From NCBI GenBank assembly GCA_000004985.1, contig GG738918.1: 64,000 bases of DNA; one strand, given 5' to 3'. Source of the stretch: Naegleria gruberi. Lineage: Eukaryota. Position numbers and translations under genes: made by a program. The notes beneath the pieces were generated by a model that searched no databases, was not told the origin of the DNA, and saw only the letters and a list, made by a program, of their open reading frames with translations. Positions 3,514 through 36,444 of the stretch are shown here, piece after piece (within the stretch, counting starts at the first letter, position 1; each line of letters starts with the position of its first letter).

Positions 3514-6500
3514 TTATCTATCAAAGCTTTTAATTTCCATATTTACTTTTTTATCCAAATTGGTAATTGCTTCTGATATAATTGTTTTTACTAAAAATGG
3601 TTCAAAATATCTACGCATTGTGTTACTATTATTTTTGAATATTACTGAAAAATTATTAATGATATTCTTGGCTTGATCCATTAGATTATTTGTTTTCAAA
3701 TATTGTGCTAAATGTGTACCAATTAAACTTTCCTTTTTAGGTGGTTGTAATGCCGTAATAGATGAAAAAATCAAAGCTCTATCAATCATTTCATCATCGA
3801 GTGAAAACCCACATCGTGAAGAATATCCATTCTGATCTATATAAATATTACTCTTATTTTCTTTAACTTCTAATATACATCTAATAAAATTATCATATAA
3901 AATACTATTTAGTAAATTATTCTTAAATTGTTGAGATTTTAAAAGAGTAAATTCTTGAATGGATGATATTGAAATTTCATTCAATGATTTTGGAATAGTT
4001 ATAAAACCACTTTCTATTCCAATTGGATAATATTTAATTTTACATGAATCATCTTCCATATTTGGAAAATTGTTATCAGTTGTATCATTAAATAATTTTG
4101 AAATTTCCATAAAATTATTAAATAATAATGAATTATGAACAGTTCTTTGATTTTTGTAGGTGAAAAAACGCATTATTATTTCCTCTCCATTACAAAGTTT
4201 AATTTCCAAATTTATAAAATTCACATTTCTACTAATTTGGTGAATTCCTTGTTTAATTTCTTTCATTGTAAATGGCATGAATATTTGATTTTCAATATTC
4301 AAATAATTTTGTTTCATATCATAAAAATAATCCAAAAATAAACATTGATTTCTAATAATTTCAATTTCATTCATATTCATCATTTTCACAAATTTCATTA
4401 ACACTAATTTACAAATAAGGTAATGAGATTCTGATTTGAGTAACCAAAATAATTGATTTCCAAATACTTTAGATTTTATACATCTAGTGATAAGATATTC
4501 TGATAACAATCCATTTTCATTCTCATATTTAATACATTGAATGAGAAACGGTAAAATATAAGAAAATATTTCGTCCTTAGTTTCGTCTAAATATTTGAGT
4601 AGTGTTAATTTTGAAAATATGCCAATTTTAGAAGAGAATAACGTGAATAGTTCCATCACATTATTTGGTTTCTTCCATTTTTCCATGATTTGATTAGCTC
4701 TAAATAGTACCATTGGAGTTTCGAATGAAATTCCAAGCAGAAATGGAACAAAATGTGAAGAATCATTTACATTCCACTTGTTATTTTCTAAAATAGTCTC
4801 CAATTTCAAATCATTTTCATCTTCAATTAAATTTGGTTTTCTATCTAAATAATACTTTACAATACAATCATGAGTAGGAAATTCAATTTCAAGAGAAAGT
4901 TCTGAATTTTTTGTATTTTGTAAAAGTTTAACATTTCCTTGAATTAATTCCAAATTTGAATCAAACACTGAACATTCAAAATAGTTGGGTTTCATAATCT
5001 CAATTCTTTTAAGAATTCCAGTCTCTAAATCTTCTCTATAACAAACAAGTGAAAATTTGATAGAATAGTCACATGAAAATTGTGAAATTTGAGTTTCGAA
5101 TATAATTTCTTCATTCCATTCGAGTGGTATTTCTATATTTTGGAGAGGAATGATTTTAGTGTCGTGAATTTCATTTTTCTTTTCATTTGAAATTATTGAA
5201 CATTCAATTGAAAAGGAAGTGAAATTTCCATATTCGAATAACAAATCCCTAAATGAAAGTCCATGAACTTGTTTTATCACAACACTCATTCTCTTATTAA
5301 AATCAAATGATGATGATGATACAATATTATTATCTATCAATTTTTCATTATTCATTTCAAATTTCTTTTCAAAAATTGAATCAAGAAATGAAATATTACT
5401 TTCAGTCAATTCTCTTTCATTTTCTAAAAGACAATTACAATTCACATAACTAATTTGATTATTATTGACAAGTCCACATAAAATATTTCTATCATTTCTT
5501 GATAATGTCTTGTTATATTTCATGTTTAAATATTTCAATTTAGGAAATGAACTTATAATTGGAATTACATTTCCATTTAGGTAATTATTAGATAGATCTA
5601 ATTTTGTCAAGTTATTACAATTGAATTTTGTAAATAATTGAATAAAATCTTTAGAATAAACTGAACAATCTGGAATTTCCAAATTAGTTAAACTTTCACA
5701 ATCACAAATATTCTCAATTAATTTGAATGAATTGGAAGTTTGAGATCTTAATTTTAAACTTTTCAATTTGAATGGTTTAAATTCTGTGTTGGGGTTTCTA
5801 AATTTCCAAATAGTATCACCTGAAATGGAAAGTTTTACCAAATTAGTCAATTCACATTTTAACAATTCTGAAAAGTTTTCTGTATTTCCATTTATAATAT
5901 TCAATTCTTCCAAATTATTAGAAATTCTTGAAATTTCTTTGAAATTTACAGTACTGTCTATTAGAGAAAGTGATTTCACTGTCAATGGAATTACATTACT
6001 ATTTATAGTAACTCCAACTAATTTCAGTTTTCTCAAATTAGTATAATCCAAATGATATAATTCTATTGTTGAATTGTTTTTACAGCAAATTACTAATGAA
6101 TAAATTTGATGTTTGATAGATTGACCAATTACTTCAACTGCTGAATTAAATTTTACATCAATTGCCAAATTGACCAAATTAGGTAATGTCATTCTACTAT
6201 TCATCTATTCACTATATATTTTATCATCAATACTAAACAGTGATGAAATATCCAAAGATTTCAACTTGTAAAAATATGTAATAATAATATTTAATCCATA
6301 ATAATCCAATCCACTATTTTCTTTCAATGTTAAACTTTTTAAATTTTCATAAAATTTAAAATTTTTCATAATTTCCAAATCAGCATTTGAAAATGAACCT
6401 GTTAAACTTGAAATCCTATAAAACAATCTATTATTTTGAATAGCAGTTATAAAATTATTGATTGGATCACAATGATGATCTTTACGTGATGAAAATCTTG

Positions 6501-6681
6501 AAAATAATTTGTGTTTCTTTTTAATTTCAATTTCAAGTTTGGAAAAAGTTGATGCGAATTTCCACTTCTTACAAGTGTGAGAAATTATTTGGAGAATGAA
6601 TTTGGAGTGGAGAAAGGAAAAGATTTCAACCAACATTTCTGTTGGCAGGTTATTAATAATGAGAGAAGATGTTAGTGACAT
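3514..6681 (-). CDS. F-box / leucine-rich-repeat protein fused to a Vps34-like (class III PI3K) C2-helical-kinase module with degenerate catalytic motifs. The two abutting ORFs are separated by one in-frame TAG.
   Basis: ORF 6205..6681 has an F-box ('LPTEMLVEIFSFLHSKFILQIISHTCKKWKF') plus LRRs. ORF 3514..6204 has further LRRs ('LTKLDLSNNYLNGNVIPIISSFPKLKYLNMKYN'), a C2-like stretch ('IPLEWNEEIIFETQISQFSCDYSIKFSLV'), a PI3K helical-domain signature ('ILPFLIQCIKYENENGLLSEYLITRCIKSKVFGNQLFWLLKSE') and a kinase-like core lacking DRH/DFG ('CILEVKENKSNIYIDQNGYSSRCGFS'). Both ORFs are in the same frame, interrupted only by TAG at 6205..6207. Confidence 0.7.
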
Positions 6682-7481: not shown

Positions 7482-7940
7482 ATGCAATTATTTGTCAAGA
7501 CACTCACTGGAAGAACTATCACTTTGGAAGTTGAATCTAATGATTCAATTGAAAATGTGAAAAGAAAGGTACAAGATAAGGAAGGAATTTCACCAGATCA
7601 ACAAAGACTCATCTTTGCTGGTAAACAATTGGAAGATGGCAGAACTATTAATGATTACAACATTCAAAAAGATTCAACACTTCATTTGGTATTGAGATTA
7701 AGAGGAGGAATGCAACTCTTCGTAAAAACCTTAACTGGAAAGACCATTACTATCGAAATGGAATCAAACGACACTGTTGAGAATATGAAACAAAAGATAT
7801 TTGATAAGGAAGGTATTCCTTCAGATCAACAACGTTTGATTTATGCCGGTAAACAATTAGAAGATGGCAGAACTATTAATGATTACAATCTTCAAAAGGA
7901 TTCAACTGTGCATTTAGTATTGAGATTGAGAGGAGGTTAA
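7482..7940 (+). CDS. Di-ubiquitin: two head-to-tail ubiquitin-like repeats, both markedly divergent from canonical ubiquitin
   Basis: The track ORF starts at a TTG (7437); the real ATG is at 7482. There are two 76-aa units, each ending in LRLRGG, with the stop directly after the second GG. Repeat 1 differs from canonical ubiquitin at 11 of 76 positions (including K11R) and repeat 2 at 16 of 76. Confidence 0.9.
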
Positions 7941-8469: not shown

Positions 8470-10869
8470 ATGAGTCAACAAGAAACATCATCTGATATGA
8501 TTGATAATAATAATCAAACGACTGGTGGTGGAGATGAAGCAATGATTGAATCTCCAGTACTCACCTCTGAAATTAATGTTCAACAACCAACACAACAAGA
8601 AGAATCACAACAACAACAACAACAAACAAGCCTTGTTGCCGAAGATGAAGCACAAAACAATACCTCATCTTCATCTTCATCGAATACAACAAATGAAGAG
8701 AATGTTCCTTCCTCTAATAACCATACAAATACTGATAACAATGTTCAAAATGTTCAATCAACAAGTGTAAATACAAAGAAGGAACAAGAAATTGATACTA
8801 CAAAACCAAAAGGAGAATATATCATCGGAGGAGCTGATGATGATGAAGAAGAAGTTTATGTTCCTAAATATCAGAGTGATTCTCCACCTTTACAACTTGA
8901 ATGGAAAGATCTTAGTTACAAAGTTAAACAACCAATTGATGCTCCTGCTCATTTGAGTGTTCCTCAAAAGATTGGATTTAAACTGAAGAATATGTTCAAA
9001 AAGAAGGAAAAGGTTATTTTGCACGAAATGTCTGGATTTGTAAGTCCTGGAAGTACTCTTGCTATTATGGTATGTTTTTAATAGTTGAACTTTGTAATTG
9101 AAATATTGTGACAATATGAATCATAATTTTCATATGATGAATATGATCATTGTGATATAATAGGGTCCTAGTGGTGCTGGTAAAACATCTCTCTGTAAGT
9201 ATTATCATGATTTCAATCCATTCTAAACATCATATGTATTTAAGTGAATATTCTTGCTCAACGTGTTAAGGAAACATCTGGTGATATCACTGTAAATGGT
9301 GTCAAGATTAGTAGTAGTTTCCGTTCTTTGTCTGCATTCGTTCAACAAGATGACGTTCTTATGGGTAATTTGAGTGTTAGAGAAACATTACGTTATGCAG
9401 CTCTTTTACGTTTACCAAAGACAATTTCATGGAAGGAAAAGATGGAACGTGTTGAATCAATTATGGATGAATTGGGTCTCTTAAAGAGTGCTAATACTAA
9501 AGTTGGTACACCTGGTTTAACTAAGGGTATTTCAGGAGGTGAAAGAAAACGTTTGAGTATTGCCATTGAATTATTGACACAACCAAGTATTTTATTCTTG
9601 GATGAACCTACAAGTGGTTTGGATGCTGCTACAGCTTACAGTGTCATGAAAACAATTATCAAAATTTCAAAGGGTGGTAGAGCTGTCATTTTAACTATCC
9701 ATCAACCTCGTTCCAATATTTATGAACTTTTTGATAAGTTACTTCTTTTAGCTCGTGGTAAGATTGCTTATTTCGGTCCAGCTAAAGATGCCACTACATA
9801 TTTCGGAAATGTTGGTTATCCATGTCCAAAACAATATAACCCAGCTGATCACTTTATTGATCTAATTACTGAATCTACTAGTGACACTGGTGAAGGTAAA
9901 AAATTGAAACAAGAAGATAATGAACGTATTGAAAAGATTCTTACAAATTATAATCACACTGAAGTTGCTCCATCAGTTGATCACTTGAAGACTGATATTA
10001 AGAAAGCCAAGTATAATGCCAATTGGTTTACTCAATTCTTCGTTGTGATGGCAAGAGCATTTGTTAATATTTTACGTGACAAGATTTTAACATTTTCAAG
10101 ATTATTCCAGAATTTAGCGATGGCTATTCTAGTCGGTTTGATCTTTTTACAAATTGGTTATGATCAGCAATCTGTTCAAGATAGAAATGGTGTTCTCTTC
10201 TTTTGTTTAGTTAACCAATCTATGAATTCCATTTTTGGTTCATTAACAGTTTTCCTTTTAGAAGAAAAGAAAGTATTTTTAAGAGAACGAGGTTCTAAAA
10301 TGTACAAAGTGAGTGCCTATTATCTTGGTAGAAGTATCAGTGAATTGCCAAATATTATCTTCTTCCCAATCCTATTTGGTACAATTGTTTATTGGATGTG
10401 TAATTTGAATCCAGGTGCAGATCGATTCTTTGTTTTCCTTTTAATTTTAGTTTCAATGGCTTTAGCTGCTCAAGCTCTTGGTATGGTGTTAGCTGTATGT
10501 GCACCTTCAATGGAATTTGCAACTGCTATTGCACCTGTATTGTTAACAGTTTTGATGTTGTTTGGTGGTTTGTACATGAATGTTGATAATATTCCACCAT
10601 ACTTTATTTGGATTTATTGGTTATCTATTTTCCACTTTGGTTATGAAGCATTGGTATTGAATGAATTTGGTGGTGCTACTTTTGAATGTCCACCATCTCC
10701 ATCTGCATGTACCTATAGAACTGGTGAAGATGTTATTAGTAGAAATGCTATGAATAAGCCATACTCAAACATTTGGTTCAATCTTGGTTTATTGTGGGCC
10801 TTCTTTTTAGTTTATCGTTTTATGGCCTACCTCATTCTCGTATTTGTTGTCAAACCAAAGAAAGGATAA
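8470..10869 (+). CDS. ABC transporter, G subfamily (White/ABCG-type half transporter, NBD-TMD order) with a Q/N/S-rich N-terminal extension
   Basis: Three exons 8470..9069, 9164..9194 and 9245..10869 (introns GTATGT..TAG 94 nt and GTAAGT..AAG 50 nt). Splicing restores the Walker A motif 'GPSGAGKTSLLNILAQR'. ABC signature 'ISGGERKRLSIA', Walker B 'ILFLDEPTSGLD', H-loop 'TIHQPR'. The C-terminal half is multi-TM and ABC2-type. Confidence 0.9.
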
Positions 10870-20299: not shown

Positions 20300-21730
20300 A
20301 TGAACCAACCTCTCCCATCATCTTTACTGGAGAATTTAAATAATCCTGATAACAAGGATGGTTTAAAAACTGTTCCCGATCATGAGAAGAGAGATTATTC
20401 ATCGGTTAAAATTCAAGACATGTTCTATAATAATTGTGTTCCTCTATTTAGGAGTCCTTATTTACATGAATTATATAGTGGACAGGCAGATGATGAATTT
20501 ATTGATTTGGATCAACAACAGGAAGCTGAGATTTCTCAACAACATCAACAAAATTATTTTCATCAATTAAATTCATTCAGAGATTATGAAATTGAATATG
20601 ATGTGATTGAACAGGCAAAGATTGCTGTTTGCATTCCTAACAGAGAGTGGAATGGTGGATTATTAATTCATTGTCATGGACATAGAGCTAAGGGAATTCC
20701 TCTTCAGGCAGATTTGAATCATGATAACATGCCAAACACTTTCAGAGAATTGATTAGCCAAGGCTGGATTGTTTCAATGACTTCATATAGAAGAGAAGGA
20801 ATAATATTGAAAGATGCAATTTTGGATGTTAATAATTTGAGAAATTATGTGGAGGAAAAACATGGACAAATTAAATGTTGTATTCTGGAAGGAAGATCAA
20901 TGGGAGGAGCAATCGTGACATTTATTAGTGAACTCCATCCACATTTATATGATGGAGCTGTTTGTATTGGTGCTGCACTGAGAGTAGACCAGAAAGAAGA
21001 ACCTCTTCCTCATCTTGTTTTACAAAACACTCCTAAATTTCCAATTATTGTAAGTGAAGTTGCAACTTTAAGGTTCTAATGTTTATAGTATTTGACAAAT
21101 ATTAGTGAATTAGGAGAACCTTCGAACTATATTGAAAGGGCAAAGAATAATTCCCTTAAAGAACAAGATATCATAACCCCTAGCTTATGGACAGTCTTTA
21201 GAGAGGGACATAATTTAGTTACAGAGCTCGAGAGAATGTCCGCATTCCAAGCCCTAATTTCTTGGATACGATTCAAAAGTAATATAACAATGAAAGTCAA
21301 TGAGGCTTGTACACTTCCAGTAGCTATTCCAAACTCTGAAGTAGAATTTACTGACTCGGACCCATCTTCAAAAGAAGGAGCTTGGGGTAAAGTCAACCAA
21401 TTATACATCTATGGATCATTTTGTATCAATTTCACAGAAAAAGACTTTGAGAAATTAGGAATTACACAAGGAAAATACTTTACTTTCAACATTTTGACAA
21501 AACAACAGGGTGTCAAGACAGTTAGTGCATCATTTGGATCTTTCCCATTTATTAAGCAAGCAACTGAAGTTGAATGGATTGCATTTGTTAATCCAGTTGA
21601 TAATTACATTGTATTGCATATTAATTCTTACAAATTTACAAACGAATCTAAAAAGATGGGAATTTCCCTTAATGATGCTATTTTTGTTGAAAAGGTCAAA
21701 CCGCTGCCTAAAAGGAAAAATAAGAATTAA
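20300..21730 (+). CDS. Alpha/beta-hydrolase-fold protein (putative serine hydrolase)
   Basis: Exons 20300..21049 and 21089..21730 join in frame through a 39-nt GTAAGT...TATAG intron that contains the stop ending the first ORF. Nucleophile elbow 'LEGRSMGGAIV' (GxSxG). Confidence 0.65.
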
Positions 21731-33715: not shown

Positions 33716-35071
33716 TTAATCGTTGAATTGAACAATAATATTAACACCACGATCGGCAATAACTTCAGTATCAGTAGCATAAAGTTCAGTTCCTGTATGG
33801 AATAATTCCTTGACCTTCTTCTTCAAGTTTGGTTCAGTCATTTGTCTGAGAGTTGCAGGTTTAGTCAAATACAAAGTTTGGTCACTAGTCAAATTACGTA
33901 ATGAAGCATTGTTGAATTGAATTGACTTGTCGGTTCTCAAAATATCTCTAAATTCATCCAAAGTAATATCTGATGAACAAGTAATTGTCTTTGAAACACC
34001 AGCAGGACCACATTGCAAACAATCTGGCTTTCTTTCATTCTTATAAGTGAATGTATAAATACCTTCACTTCCGTTAAACATCATGTAATCATCCAAGAAT
34101 GGAGTACAGAAAGTAGCCAATTTGAATGCTTCATTTGTACATGATGAAGCAATAATAGCATTGGTGGAGGCAATAGCAGGAATGATACCCTTGATGACAC
34201 CTTGTGTTAAACGGAATGTAACACCAGCAATACCAAAGTTCTTGGCACGTTCCAAAGACTTTTCATAGATCCATTGAACGTGTCTTGGATTATCACCATC
34301 AACTTGTTCATCATCAGGAATACCTTCCTTTCCTTTACAATTACGCCATTCTTCAATATAACAATATTGAATACAATGTTCAGGAAGACGTGGAGTTGTC
34401 TTTAAAGTACACATTGGATAATTTGTTTCATCAGTAGGGAATAAATCCAAAGTACATTCATAACAAGATGTAACACCTGGCAAGATAACTCTAGATTGTC
34501 CTTTAAAGCCTTCAGTACCACCATCAACCAAGGAAATCATGGAACTCATATCAACTTCAGTCTTTTCATCATCAACATATTGAATCAAAGAGAGGAGAGT
34601 ACTATTGATCCAACGACGAGCTGGAATAGAATCCAAACCAGCAATAATAATTCCAAATGATCTATAGAAATCAACAGACTTTTCTTGGATTGCACAAATG
34701 TGTGCTGTAACTTTAACACCTGGCACTCTTTCATTGACAAATCGAGCAGCAACTTCAGCCTTCATCTTACCAACATCACCATCACGGAACAAAAATTGTC
34801 TATTCAAATTACTTGTACTGATGGTATCCATATCAATGATATCAATATTACGGAAGCCACTCATTGCCAAATTCTTCACCAAATCGCAACCAAGACCACC
34901 AGCTCCAATAATTAAAACTTTGCAAGAATCTTGTAAAAATTGTTTAGTTTCATCACCAGCTTGGAAATCTGCTGGAGCAAATGGACCTGATCTCTTCAAA
35001 ATATAATCAAGATCTTTCCATCTTTCTGCTTCAATTTCAGGAGGGAATGATGTATCTACAACGCTGGCCAT
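33716..35071 (-). CDS. UBA3: NEDD8-activating enzyme E1 catalytic subunit (UBA3/UBE1C)
   Basis: 'CKVLIIGAGGLGCDLVKNLAMSGFRNIDIIDMDTISTSNLNRQFLFR' (ThiF/E1 adenylation fold). Catalytic-Cys region 'YPMCTLKTTPRLPEHCIQY' matches the UBA3 sequence 'PMCTIASMPRLPEHCIEY'. The start at 35071 ('aaaaaaaaATGgcc') is preferred over the upstream in-frame ATG at 35173. Confidence 0.9.
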   Translation of the reverse strand: MASVVDTSFPPEIEAERWKDLDYILKRSGPFAPADFQAGDETKQFLQDSCKVLIIGAGGLGCDLVKNLAMSGFRNIDIIDMDTISTSNLNRQFLFRDGDVGKMKAEVAARFVNERVPGVKVTAHICAIQEKSVDFYRSFGIIIAGLDSIPARRWINSTLLSLIQYVDDEKTEVDMSSMISLVDGGTEGFKGQSRVILPGVTSCYECTLDLFPTDETNYPMCTLKTTPRLPEHCIQYCYIEEWRNCKGKEGIPDDEQVDGDNPRHVQWIYEKSLERAKNFGIAGVTFRLTQGVIKGIIPAIASTNAIIASSCTNEAFKLATFCTPFLDDYMMFNGSEGIYTFTYKNERKPDCLQCGPAGVSKTITCSSDITLDEFRDILRTDKSIQFNNASLRNLTSDQTLYLTKPATLRQMTEPNLKKKVKELFHTGTELYATDTEVIADRGVNIIVQFND

Positions 35072-36444
35072 TTTTTTTCTATGTATTGAATTGATCAAAC
35101 TTGCAGAGAACTTGAGTTTATTTTTAAATCCAAAGTTGCTGCTTTGAAAGGCTTGGGATGAACTCAACAACATTGAGAAATATTGTTGAACACAAGTGAA
35201 ACAATTTACAATGAATGATAGAGAGAGTTGGGGTTTTGAATTTGAATTTGTAATGGTGTGAATTTTTAAAAGAGATGATCAACTTTTGAAGTTATTGCCA
35301 ACAACATATTGTAGTTTTCCAGAAACCATGACATAAATTTTTTCACCTCAACACCGATCATTTTTCCATCTCATCCATGTTGATCGATTAAAATCCATCT
35401 ATTCAATCTGTTTTTTGATCAATCTATCAAACAATCGATCATGATTAATCAACAATTTCAATCATATTGAATAAAGACTTGATGTTATTTGAAAAGGCTC
35501 AATTTTCAACTAATTATCAAAAGATGTTGTTTGATTTCTTGTGATGTTTCAAAATAAAGAACTTTAAAACACAAAAAGTTGTTTTTCCAAGTTGCTTAAA
35601 ATCATGTTAGAAGCCAATCTCCTCCGATGTGGCATTTGAATATAAATTTCTTATAATCCTTTCTGAGCTCAATGACAGAGGGTTGCTCCCTTTTTCCAAG
35701 AATATGTCAAGTGCTCACTCTTGATTTTAATTTGGGATATGGATATTGCAATATTACATAAGAGTGTTGGTTCTTGGTTAATGATTGCTTACACAAGTTT
35801 GGACGTTGTTGCTCCTGAACATGTGGTTTTGTTCAAAGAACACCTTATCAAATTTGCTTTCATTCTCTCCCTTTGTCATTAATTAAGGCAGTGAATACTG
35901 GAAACCTTTTTTCAAGTGTTGTATTTATCATGTCAAGTTCTTGAGAAACTCGATTGATGTAGTAGAAGATCCACTAGTAATTCAGTAAGATACAAATCTA
36001 TCTAAGTTGTAACCCAGCATTTCTTCGAAAATGTCGAATTCATTGTAAAGAAATTAAAACATTCAAACTTAATGAATCGTTCACGATACCACCCCCACTT
36101 GATATGGAATTAAGTAATACCAATAAGGTGATTTTCAAGACACTCTATACTGACATCCAACCAAGGGTTGATTTAAAATGAAAAAAGGAGCAATTTGGAG
36201 AAGCCATTTCCAAGCTTAGTGATATAATTTAATTAAGGGAGAATGAAATCTGTGACTCTAAAAATAATTGAAAAACCAAAAAACAACTCTCAAAAAGGCA
36301 AGAAAAAAATCAAACCTGAACTGGAAGAACAAAAGAAATCATCAAAATCAAAGTCTCAAGCTCAGTTCAATGAGGATTTCGAGATATCTGATGAAAACAT
36401 TGATAGATCGATCGATTGATCGATCAATTAATTGATAAAATTCT

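What the first reader, a model, noticed from the sequence alone, without database searches (positions are those of the whole stretch)
3514..6681. F-box/LRR adaptor fused to a catalytically dead Vps34-like PI3K module, with one in-frame TAG at the junction
Seen in sequence: ORF 6205..6681 and ORF 3514..6204 (minus strand) are in the same frame and abut. The only interruption in about 1,055 codons is TAG (6207..6205), followed directly by ATG. The N-terminal part has an F-box plus LRRs, and the LRRs continue across the junction, so the two ORFs look like one architecture. By eye, the C-terminal ~560 aa is collinear with class III PI3K. It has a C2-like segment ('LEWNEEIIFETQISQF'), a helical-domain signature ('ILPFLIQCIKYENE...LITRCIKSKVFGNQLFWLLKSE' versus 'LLQLVQALKYE...FLIxRAxxNxxLGNxFxWYLxxE') and a kinase-like core. 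In that core the expected motifs are replaced: the GDDLRQD region reads 'YKNQRTVHNS', GDRHxxN reads 'KENKSN', and DFG reads 'CGF'. Inference: this is an SCF-type substrate receptor carrying a pseudo-PI3K fold, perhaps a decoy or scaffold for Vps15/Beclin-type partners or a lipid reader. I know of no described F-box-PI3K fusion. The TAG has several possible explanations. It could sit in an in-frame intron: candidate donors are GTGAAT at 6212 or GTATTG at 6233, with the acceptor TTCAG ending at 6141, giving 72 or 93 nt. It could be read through, or it could mark a recent gene split or pseudogenisation.
Basis: partly seen in the sequence, partly recalled or inferred. Interest (0 to 1): 0.7.

Follow-up and report, generated by a model that had tools for sequence, protein, structure and literature searches.

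The report
F-box/LRR protein with dead PI3K module
A Naegleria gruberi gene joins a ubiquitin-ligase adaptor (F-box plus leucine-rich repeats) to a lipid-kinase (PI3K) body that has lost its catalytic residues; this copy, one of four in the genome, is cut by a single stop codon that is a point change and not an intron.

Summary
On the minus strand, ORF 6681..6208 (158 aa) and ORF 6204..3514 (896 aa) share a frame and are separated only by TAG 6207..6205. It is the only such junction in the window.

Three points need correcting:
- **Organism.** The window is Naegleria gruberi. The only strong relatives among 1.84 billion proteins are three N. gruberi paralogues, all equally "dead".
- **PI3K class.** By sequence the module is closest to class I/II-type PI3Ks, not Vps34.
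- **The TAG.** An intron is very unlikely. Paralogue P0001 reads straight through with Leu, the proposed intron is conserved coding sequence, and its donor sites do not fit local introns.

The TAG is most simply a one-base nonsense change, either a recent pseudogene or allele or a base error. Readthrough or reinitiation is not excluded. I found no paper describing a pseudo-PI3K of this kind or an F-box fusion to one, so I class this as a new variant of known kinds, of moderate interest.

The parts
6208..6681 (-). ORF1, 158 codons: F-box plus the first two LRR units. It ends at the in-frame TAG.
   Evidence: Its residues 70-158 are 47% identical to the N-terminus of paralogue P0001.
6547..6657 (-). 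F-box (ORF1 aa 9-45: LPTEMLVEIFSFL...HTCKKWK)
   Evidence: Pfam F-box-like E 2.8e-7 (30.6 bits, cut-off 24.3) and F-box E 1.7e-5 (25 bits, cut-off 20.5).
6205..6207 (-). In-frame TAG (codon 159 of the fused reading), followed directly by ATG 6204..6202. It aligns to Leu in paralogue P0001 ('YYKLMNSKM').
   Evidence: TTG is a common Leu codon in this gene (35 uses), one base away from TAG.
3514..6204 (-). ORF2, 896 codons plus TAA: remaining LRRs, C2, helical domain and kinase-like domain.
5470..6342 (-). Leucine-rich repeat array, about 12 units with a period of about 25 aa (fused aa 114 to about 400). It straddles the TAG.
   Evidence: LxxLx[LIVMF] cores occur only at fused aa 114-382. PDB LRR ectodomains match at E 2e-6 to 1e-3. 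Pfam LRR hits are weak.
4852..5301 (-). PI3K-type C2 domain (ORF2 aa about 302-451; 'LEWNEEIIFETQISQF')
   Evidence: hhalign of this part alone against full PI3Ks: E 1.4e-4 at the C2 position. Pfam PI3K_C2 is weak here (E 0.065) but above threshold in paralogue P0002 (29.4 bits against 26.4).
4423..4743 (-). PI3K accessory (helical, PIK) domain core, ORF2 aa 488-594
   Evidence: Pfam PF00613 E 1.2e-12. PDB class I PI3K delta E 1.9e-4. hhalign.
3517..4287 (-). Kinase-like domain without catalytic residues (ORF2 aa about 640-896)
4147..4149 (-). Gln686, at the position of the ATP-binding Lys of PI3K (IFK-GDDLRQD region)
   Evidence: hhalign mapping. The position is Gln in P0001 and Ser in P0002 and P0003.
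3847..3864 (-). 'KENKSN' (aa 781-786) in place of the catalytic loop GDRHxxN; there is no Asp at the DRH position
3805..3813 (-). 'CGF' (aa 798-800) in place of IDF of the DFG motif: Asp is replaced by Gly
   Evidence: The residue is also non-Asp in P0001 (G), P0002 (H) and P0003 (L).

Best explanation
The locus is one gene-sized unit of Naegleria gruberi. It is the fourth, apparently unannotated, paralogue of a small family whose ancestral protein reads F-box, then about 12 LRRs, then PI3K-type C2, PI3K helical domain and a PI3K/PI4K-fold kinase domain.

That kinase domain had already lost the catalytic Lys and both catalytic Asp residues before the paralogues diverged. The family is therefore a non-catalytic derivative of a class I/II-type PI3K in which an SCF adaptor module takes the place of the N-terminal adaptor- and Ras-binding part.

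**Inferred mechanism.**
- The F-box docks on Skp1-Cul1.
- The LRR solenoid and the dead PI3K body (C2 for membranes, helical and kinase lobes as a binding surface) select what is ubiquitinated or where.

**The TAG.** It is a single-base nonsense change of a sense codon (Leu in the paralogue) inside the third LRR, not an intron. As assembled, the copy encodes a 158-aa F-box stub. Only if ORF2 is initiated separately at the pre-existing Met that follows does it also encode an F-box-less 896-aa protein.

Nothing else in 1,055 codons is damaged, and ORF2 keeps 90% of the family-invariant residues. The change is therefore very recent, allelic, or a base error.

**Shown:** the domain content, the loss of catalytic residues, the continuity in a paralogue, and the conservation across the junction.
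**Inferred:** SCF function, the role of the dead kinase, and the fate of the TAG in vivo.
For: - **Organism.** The neighbouring UBA3 ORF is 100% identical to an N. gruberi protein, 88% to N. lovaniensis and 81% to Willaertia.
- **Family.** A full HMMER scan of 1.84 billion representatives found three strong relatives (E 0 to 7e-81), all from N. gruberi. The next hits are true PI3Ks, matched through the helical domain.
- **Continuity.** P0001 aligns across the TAG in one HSP, with Leu opposite the stop. The junction region is as conserved as its flanks. LRR cores lie on both sides of the TAG.
- **Domains.**
- **PI3K homology.** hhalign probability 99.5, E 3e-22, 474 collinear columns.
- **Catalytic residues.** They are absent in all four paralogues.
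- **No decay.** The window copy keeps 89 of 99 positions that are invariant in the other three paralogues, the highest share of the four.
- **TAG is a normal stop here.** Long ORFs in the window end in TAA 20 times, TGA 5 times and TAG twice.
- **No intron signal.** Local introns use GTATGT and GTAAGT donors, and none lies near the TAG.
Against: - The kinase-domain homology is weak by sequence alone (hhalign E 0.02; no Pfam hit). The structural support rests on a model of mean pLDDT 54 and pTM 0.45.
- The F-box is seen only in this copy. The three deposited paralogue models start downstream of it, so an F-box in the whole family is unproven.
- No transcript, read or allele data could be examined, so a real nonsense mutation cannot be told from a base error or from a decoded stop.
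- The perfect preservation of both ORFs would also fit continued expression.
- Neither ORF is in the 15-billion-protein collection. This could mean the annotators treated the locus as a pseudogene, or simply that the entry is missing.
Confidence: 0.6

Rival explanations
1. The TAG is a base-call or assembly error, or one allele of a heterozygous site. In the organism the gene is an intact 1,055-codon ORF.
For: - It is a single-base difference from common sense codons such as TTG Leu, the paralogue's residue.
- There is no other lesion in 1,055 codons.
- ORF2 keeps 90% of family-invariant residues.
Against: - This cannot be tested without reads.
- From general knowledge, the N. gruberi reference is a deep Sanger assembly in which substitution errors are rare.
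- No deposited protein model covers the locus, which would be odd for a clean 1,055-codon ORF.
Confidence: 0.2
2. The locus is a gene fission. ORF1 (a small F-box protein) and ORF2 (LRR plus dead PI3K, starting at the ATG after the TAG) are now expressed as two separate products, either from an internal start site or by termination-reinitiation at TAGATG.
For: - ATG follows the stop directly.
- Both ORFs are intact and ORF2 shows no relaxed constraint.
Against: - That Met is ancestral, since it is present in P0001 ('KLMNSKM'). It did not evolve as a start codon.
- There is no intergenic space for a promoter.
- The cut falls inside the LRR solenoid, between units at aa 140 and 169, which would leave two incomplete folds.
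- From general knowledge, reinitiation after a 158-codon ORF is inefficient in eukaryotes.
Confidence: 0.1
3. The TAG undergoes programmed readthrough, giving a short F-box product and a full-length F-box/LRR/pseudo-PI3K product from one mRNA.
For: - The downstream ORF is fully intact.
- Two adenines lie immediately 5' of the stop (GAA TAG).
- The 111 nt from 3 nt before the stop onward fold slightly better than shuffles (z -1.7; 8 of 200 shuffles fold as well).
Against: - The base after the stop is A, and the next codons (ATG AAT) do not match the known leaky CAR-YYA context; this rests on general knowledge.
- The structure signal is marginal.
- TAG ends other long ORFs in the window.
- It is the only such junction in 64 kb.
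- The paralogue has an ordinary Leu codon at this position.
Confidence: 0.07
4. The TAG lies in a short in-frame spliceosomal intron of 72 or 93 nt.
For: GT...AG pairs of in-frame length exist: GTGAAT at 6212 or GTATTG at 6233, with TTCAG ending at 6141.
Against: - The 'intron' encodes MNSRMTLPNLVNLAIDVKFNS, which matches paralogue P0001 (MNSKMSLPNLVNLLVDSSVNE) as well as the flanking exons do.
- Removing it would delete an LRR unit that P0001 retains.
- The donors differ from the GTATGT and GTAAGT donors of introns in this window.
Confidence: 0.03
5. The C-terminal 260 aa are not a degenerate kinase domain but an unrelated domain that follows a genuine C2-helical module.
For: - No Pfam PI3_PI4_kinase hit in any paralogue.
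- hhalign of this part alone gives only E 0.02.
- The model confidence is moderate to low.
Against: - The weak alignment sits exactly at the collinear hinge, catalytic-loop and DFG positions, while the controls align 9-14 columns elsewhere.
- In the full-length hhalign the match runs on from the helical domain to the DFG position.
Confidence: 0.1

Closest known systems
Class I/II phosphoinositide 3-kinase catalytic subunits (p110 alpha/beta/gamma/delta, PI3KC2-alpha)
   Same: - C2, helical (PIK) domain and bilobal kinase fold occur in the same order.
- These are the best sequence matches in the PDB and in the 1.84-billion-protein scan.
- They also give the best Foldseek matches.
   Different: - There is no adaptor-binding or Ras-binding domain; an F-box and LRRs stand in that place.
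- The ATP-binding Lys, the DRH Asp and the DFG Asp are all missing.
- The Pfam kinase profile does not match.
- It is not expected to phosphorylate lipids.
Vps34 / class III PI3K
   Same: - It has a C2-helical-kinase core with no Ras-binding domain.
   Different: - By sequence, no Vps34 chain is among the 60 best PDB matches.
- No RBD-less (Vps34-type) full-length PI3K is among the significant hits of the full scan; the three hits without an RBD are fragments that lack the N-terminal region.
- The catalytic residues are absent.
- Binding to Vps15 or Beclin is untested.
FBXL-type F-box proteins (F-box plus LRR substrate receptors of SCF ligases, such as Skp2 and FBXL3)
   Same: An N-terminal F-box above the Pfam thresholds is followed directly by an LRR array with a period of about 25 aa.
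   Different: The LRRs are followed by a 600-aa PI3K-derived module, which no described FBXL protein carries as far as my searches show. Skp1 binding is untested.
TRRAP/Tra1, the pseudokinase of the PI3K-related kinase family, and the pseudo-PIPKs of protists
   Different: They belong to different subfamilies: PIKK with FAT/HEAT repeats, and PIPK. Neither has a C2 or PIK domain, or an F-box.
N. gruberi paralogues EFC39004.1 (NAEGRDRAFT_52708), EFC40945.1 and EFC37602.1 (NAEGRDRAFT_74644)
   Same: They share the same LRR, C2, helical and dead-kinase body at 49%, 35% and 37% identity and come from the same genome.
   Different: - The deposited models are uninterrupted and start downstream of the F-box position.
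- They are unstudied; one carries the automatic name 'phosphatidylinositol 3-kinase'.

Membership tests
F-box proteins (SCF substrate receptors), FBXL subclass | F-box motif of about 40-50 aa recognised by the family profiles | tested here: met
   PF12937 scores 30.6 bits (cut-off 24.3) and PF00646 scores 25 bits (cut-off 20.5), at ORF1 aa 9-45.
F-box proteins (SCF substrate receptors), FBXL subclass | Leucine-rich repeats C-terminal to the F-box | tested here: met
   Ten strict LxxLx[LIVMF] cores (about 12 LRR units) lie at fused aa 114-382 and nowhere else. PDB LRR proteins match at E 2e-6. Pfam LRR profiles match only below threshold.
F-box proteins (SCF substrate receptors), FBXL subclass | Binding to Skp1 and assembly into an SCF ligase | not testable with these tools
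   This needs pull-down or two-hybrid assays with Naegleria Skp1.
Phosphoinositide 3-kinase catalytic subunits | PI3K accessory (helical/PIK) domain | tested here: met
   PF00613 scores 48-50 bits against a cut-off of 31. hhalign probability is 99.5.
Phosphoinositide 3-kinase catalytic subunits | PI3K-type C2 domain N-terminal to the helical domain | tested here: met
   hhalign of this part alone gives E 1.4e-4 at the C2 position. PF00792 is above its cut-off in paralogue P0002 (29.4 against 26.4) and weak in the window copy (E 0.065).
Phosphoinositide 3-kinase catalytic subunits | PI3/PI4-kinase catalytic domain recognised by the family profile (PF00454) | tested here: not met
   There is no hit at E up to 10 in the window copy or P0001, and none at E up to 1 in P0002 and P0003. 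Only the fold is supported.
Phosphoinositide 3-kinase catalytic subunits | Catalytic Lys and two Asp residues (the VAIK-like Lys, DRH and DFG), named as the hallmark of phosphoinositide kinases in PMC3823935 | tested here: not met
   The Lys position holds Gln or Ser, the DRH Asp is absent ('KENKSN'), and the DFG Asp is replaced by Gly, His or Leu in all four paralogues.
Class III PI3K (Vps34) specifically | Closest sequence relatives are Vps34 orthologues | tested here: not met
   The 59 best PI3K matches in the PDB are class I and class II chains, with no Vps34. The significant true-PI3K hits of the full scan carry Ras-binding domains. Structure is not discriminating.
Class III PI3K (Vps34) specifically | Complex with Vps15 and Beclin/Atg6 | not testable with these tools
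   No interaction data are available.
Spliceosomal intron across the TAG | Splice sites like those of the organism, and sequence free of coding constraint | tested here: not met
   The candidate donors GTGAAT and GTATTG differ from the local GTATGT and GTAAGT. The segment is 12/20 and 10/20 identical to the paralogue at protein level, like its flanks.
Programmed stop-codon readthrough | Leaky stop context or a stimulatory downstream structure | tested here: inconclusive
   The context is TAG-A followed by ATG AAT, which is not a known leaky motif. The downstream fold has z -1.7, and 8 of 200 shuffles fold as well. No expression data are available.

The most novel reading that the evidence does not exclude
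The four N. gruberi genes form a functional family of SCF ubiquitin-ligase receptors built on a dead class I/II-type PI3K body. As far as my searches show, this would be the first pseudo-PI3K described. It would couple recognition of PI3K partners or phosphoinositide membranes to ubiquitination. In this copy the TAG would be decoded or bypassed (readthrough or reinitiation), so that one locus yields both an F-box stub and a full-length or F-box-less form as a regulated switch.
Probability: 0.08. Interest if true: 0.75.

Novelty: new variant of a known kind. Interest (0 to 1): 0.5.

Why it matters
- **Rare kind of pseudoenzyme.** Pseudokinases are common among protein kinases, but dead members of the phosphoinositide-kinase families are barely documented. 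PMC3823935 reported the first pseudo-PIPKs and noted that none had been described before. In the PIKK branch, TRRAP is the lone example (PMC8926402).
- **A selected non-catalytic role.** Here a PI3K body has been kept without its catalytic residues through several duplications, with paralogues down to 33% identity. That implies selection for a non-catalytic function.
- **A link to ubiquitination.** In at least one copy the PI3K body is joined to an F-box/LRR adaptor. This suggests a direct link between PI3K-type recognition surfaces and SCF ubiquitination in an early-branching eukaryote with rich signalling.
- **Annotation.** The deposited N. gruberi models (one named 'phosphatidylinositol 3-kinase') probably mislead and may lack their 5' F-box exons, and this locus appears to have no model.
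- **The TAG.** By itself it is most likely mundane.

Tried and rejected
- **First structure prediction.** A two-sequence alignment gave pLDDT 36 and was unusable. The four-sequence run reached pLDDT 54.
- **Word-indexed homologue search.** Run with the four-paralogue alignment, it returned only P0001 and missed P0002 and P0003 although they were in the query. That search was wasted, and true PI3Ks could not be added to the structure alignment.
- **Metagenome scan with the family alignment.** 258 pattern matches, none a relative.
- **Paralogue DNA.** Look-ups of N. gruberi contigs for P0001, P0002 and P0013 found nothing on record. The paralogues' DNA, and so their upstream F-box exons and dN/dS, could not be examined.
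- **AFDB search.** The AFDB Foldseek library was not available.
- **Promoter and terminator scan.** The bacterial-type scan around the junction was not informative for a eukaryote.
- **Genome-wide TAG reassignment.** Rejected. This is the only single-stop junction in the window, and TAG ends other long ORFs.
- **P0001 as an orthologue.** I first treated it as one from another species. I corrected this after the UBA3 neighbour proved 100% identical to N. gruberi, which makes P0001 a paralogue.
- **Literature.** Searches for the fusion, for the paralogue accessions and for Naegleria PI3K surveys found no description.
Full report
**1. The observation**

On the minus strand, ORF 6681..6208 (158 aa) and ORF 6204..3514 (896 aa) are in the same frame. 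Only TAG 6207..6205 separates them, and the next codon is ATG.

A six-frame scan of the 64-kb window found no other pair of open stretches of at least 100 codons separated by a single stop. At the local composition (24% GC) a stop is expected every 10-11 codons. The two off-frames of the same stretch carry 102 and 150 stops, against one in frame. An upstream open stretch of 166 codons has P about 7e-8 by chance.

**2. The organism**

A neighbouring ORF (33719..35173, minus strand) encodes the NEDD8-activating enzyme catalytic subunit. It is 100% identical to a Naegleria gruberi predicted protein, 88% to N. lovaniensis and 81% to Willaertia magna. The window is therefore N. gruberi, or a strain indistinguishable from it at this protein.

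This changes how the homologues should be read. The only protein found with ORF2 in the 5.8-billion-sequence search was P0001, from N. gruberi, 963 aa and 44% identical. A full HMMER scan of 1.84 billion representatives added two more strong relatives, P0002 (E 6e-85) and P0003 (E 7e-81). All three are N. gruberi proteins on other scaffolds: EFC39004.1, EFC40945.1 (auto-named 'phosphatidylinositol 3-kinase') and EFC37602.1. They are paralogues, not orthologues.

Neither window ORF is in the 15-billion-protein collection by exact look-up, and no model near 100% identity appeared. The locus seems to have no deposited gene model.

**3. Domain content**

| Part | Position | Evidence |
|---|---|---|
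| F-box | ORF1 aa 9-45 | Above both Pfam cut-offs |
| LRR array | fused aa 114-382 | LxxLx[LIVMF] cores at 114, 140, 169, 216, 257, 281, 306, 331, 358 and 382 and nowhere else in 1,055 residues; LRR ectodomains in the PDB match at E 2e-6 |
| PI3K-type C2 | ORF2 aa about 302-451 | hhalign of this part alone E 1.4e-4 at the right position; Pfam above cut-off in P0002 |
| PI3K helical domain | ORF2 aa 488-594 | Pfam E 1.2e-12 |

The LRR array has a period of about 25 aa, and the TAG at codon 159 falls between the second and third units.

**4. The C-terminal 260 residues**

No Pfam kinase profile matches this part in any paralogue.

A profile of the four paralogues aligned to a profile of five true PI3Ks gives probability 99.5 and E 3e-22. 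The alignment covers 474 collinear columns, running from the C2 domain through the helical domain and on to the DFG position.

Taken alone against the kinase domain alone, this part gives only E 0.02. The 85 aligned columns are nevertheless the hinge, catalytic loop and DFG in the right order. Two controls gave E 0.19 and 0.49 over 9-14 columns.

A structure model was built from the four paralogues only, with no true PI3K in the alignment. It reached mean pLDDT 54, and 60-78 over much of the kinase-like part.
- **Foldseek against the PDB:** all 22 hits with E<=1e-3 are PI3Ks. The best are PI3KC2-alpha at 6e-11, p110 gamma and delta at about 1e-9, and Vps34 at 3e-8.

I take the kinase fold as supported at about 0.85-0.9, with the caveat of a moderate-confidence model.

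**5. Loss of catalytic residues**

In the alignment, the ATP-binding Lys position holds Gln (window copy and P0001) or Ser (P0002 and P0003). The GDRHxxN loop reads KENKSN, with no Asp at the DRH position. The DFG Asp is Gly, Gly, His and Leu in the four paralogues.

All four paralogues lack the residues, and the paralogues are only 33-50% identical to one another. The loss therefore predates the duplications, and the dead module has been maintained. PMC3823935 names these three residues as the hallmark of phosphoinositide kinases. It states that no pseudo-phosphoinositide kinase had been described before its own pseudo-PIPKs.

**6. Which PI3K class**

By sequence the best PDB matches are class I delta (E 1.9e-4), beta, gamma and alpha, and class II C2-alpha. 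No Vps34 chain is among the 60 best.

In the full scan, nine true PI3Ks reached E<=1e-3. All six that cover the region N-terminal to the C2 domain carry a Ras-binding domain, and one also has a p85-binding domain.

**7. The TAG**

- **Continuity in the paralogue.** P0001 aligns to the window in one tblastn HSP (6483..3550) that crosses the TAG. The stop lies opposite Leu in 'YYKLMNSKM', and the following Met is also present in the paralogue.
- **Conservation of the proposed intron.** The 20-residue bins around the junction are 12/20 and 10/20 identical to P0001, no less than their neighbours. The proposed 72- or 93-nt intron is therefore conserved coding sequence.
- **Splice sites.** The proposed donors (GTGAAT, GTATTG) differ from the GTATGT and GTAAGT donors of introns visible in this window, in the ABC transporter and at 21050. 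I reject the intron.
- **No reassignment.** TAG is not reassigned: it ends two of 27 long ORFs, and TAA dominates.
- **A one-base change.** TTG is used 35 times for Leu in this gene and is one base away from TAG.
- **No decay.** ORF2 keeps 89 of 99 positions that are invariant in the other three paralogues, the highest share of the four. There is no sign of decay.

The simplest reading is a one-base nonsense change that is very recent, allelic, or a base error.

Readthrough is not favoured by context (TAG-A), and the downstream structure signal is marginal at z -1.7. Separate expression of ORF2 from the pre-existing Met is possible. It would, however, cut the LRR solenoid and leave no promoter space. 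None of these can be settled without reads or transcripts.

**8. Mechanism**

This section is inference. An F-box followed by LRRs is the FBXL design of SCF substrate receptors. The dead PI3K body would add a membrane-binding C2 and a large helical and kinase surface, serving to recognise partners or phosphoinositide-rich membranes rather than to phosphorylate.

Whether the other paralogues also carry an F-box is unknown. Their deposited models start just downstream of that position, and their genomic DNA could not be retrieved.

**9. Novelty and score**

Literature searches found no description of an F-box/PI3K fusion, of a pseudo-PI3K of this kind, or of the paralogue accessions. Both building blocks are well known, and the family is so far confined to one species. 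I class it as a new variant of known kinds, with interest 0.5.

Noticed in passing
window 7482..7940 (+): A two-repeat ubiquitin gene lies head-to-head with the F-box gene, with the two start codons about 800 bp apart. Both repeats match Pfam ubiquitin strongly (E 6e-60). By my recollection of canonical ubiquitin they differ from it at about 11 or more of 76 positions, including K11R in the first repeat, which is unusual for so invariant a protein.
   Followed up: partly
window 9071..9243 (+), inside the ABC transporter gene 8470..10869: Two short introns (GTATGT...ATAG and GTAAGT...TTAAG) flank a micro-exon of about 32 nt (9164..9195) that encodes the Walker A motif GPSGAGKTS (Pfam). I used them as the local splice-site reference.
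   Followed up: partly
window 5953..6024 (-), ORF2 aa 61-84: The window copy has 24 extra residues (KLVGVTINSNVIPLTVKSLSLIDS) relative to paralogue P0001, exactly one LRR unit. This is either repeat-number variation or a coding unit spliced out of the P0001 gene model.
   Followed up: no
window 3514..6681: Neither ORF is present in the 15-billion-protein collection by exact look-up, while a neighbouring gene's product is present at 100% identity. The locus seems to lack a deposited gene model. The gene is also more AT-rich (24% GC) than most of the rest of the window, where 2-kb bins run mostly 28-35% GC.
   Followed up: partly
window 33719..35173 (-): The NEDD8-activating enzyme catalytic subunit (UBA3; ThiF plus E2_bind domains) lies here, 100% identical to the N. 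gruberi protein. This is what identified the organism. The deposited model is 451 aa against 485 aa for the ORF, so its start differs.
   Followed up: partly
window 20300..21730 (+): ORFs 20300..21079 and 21092..21730 are in the same frame. A GTAAGT lies at about 21050, just before the first stop, so this is probably one gene with a short intron rather than two genes.
   Followed up: no
paralogue P0002 (EFC40945.1): It is deposited under the name 'phosphatidylinositol 3-kinase', yet it lacks a detectable kinase profile and all three catalytic residues. The name is probably misleading.
   Followed up: yes
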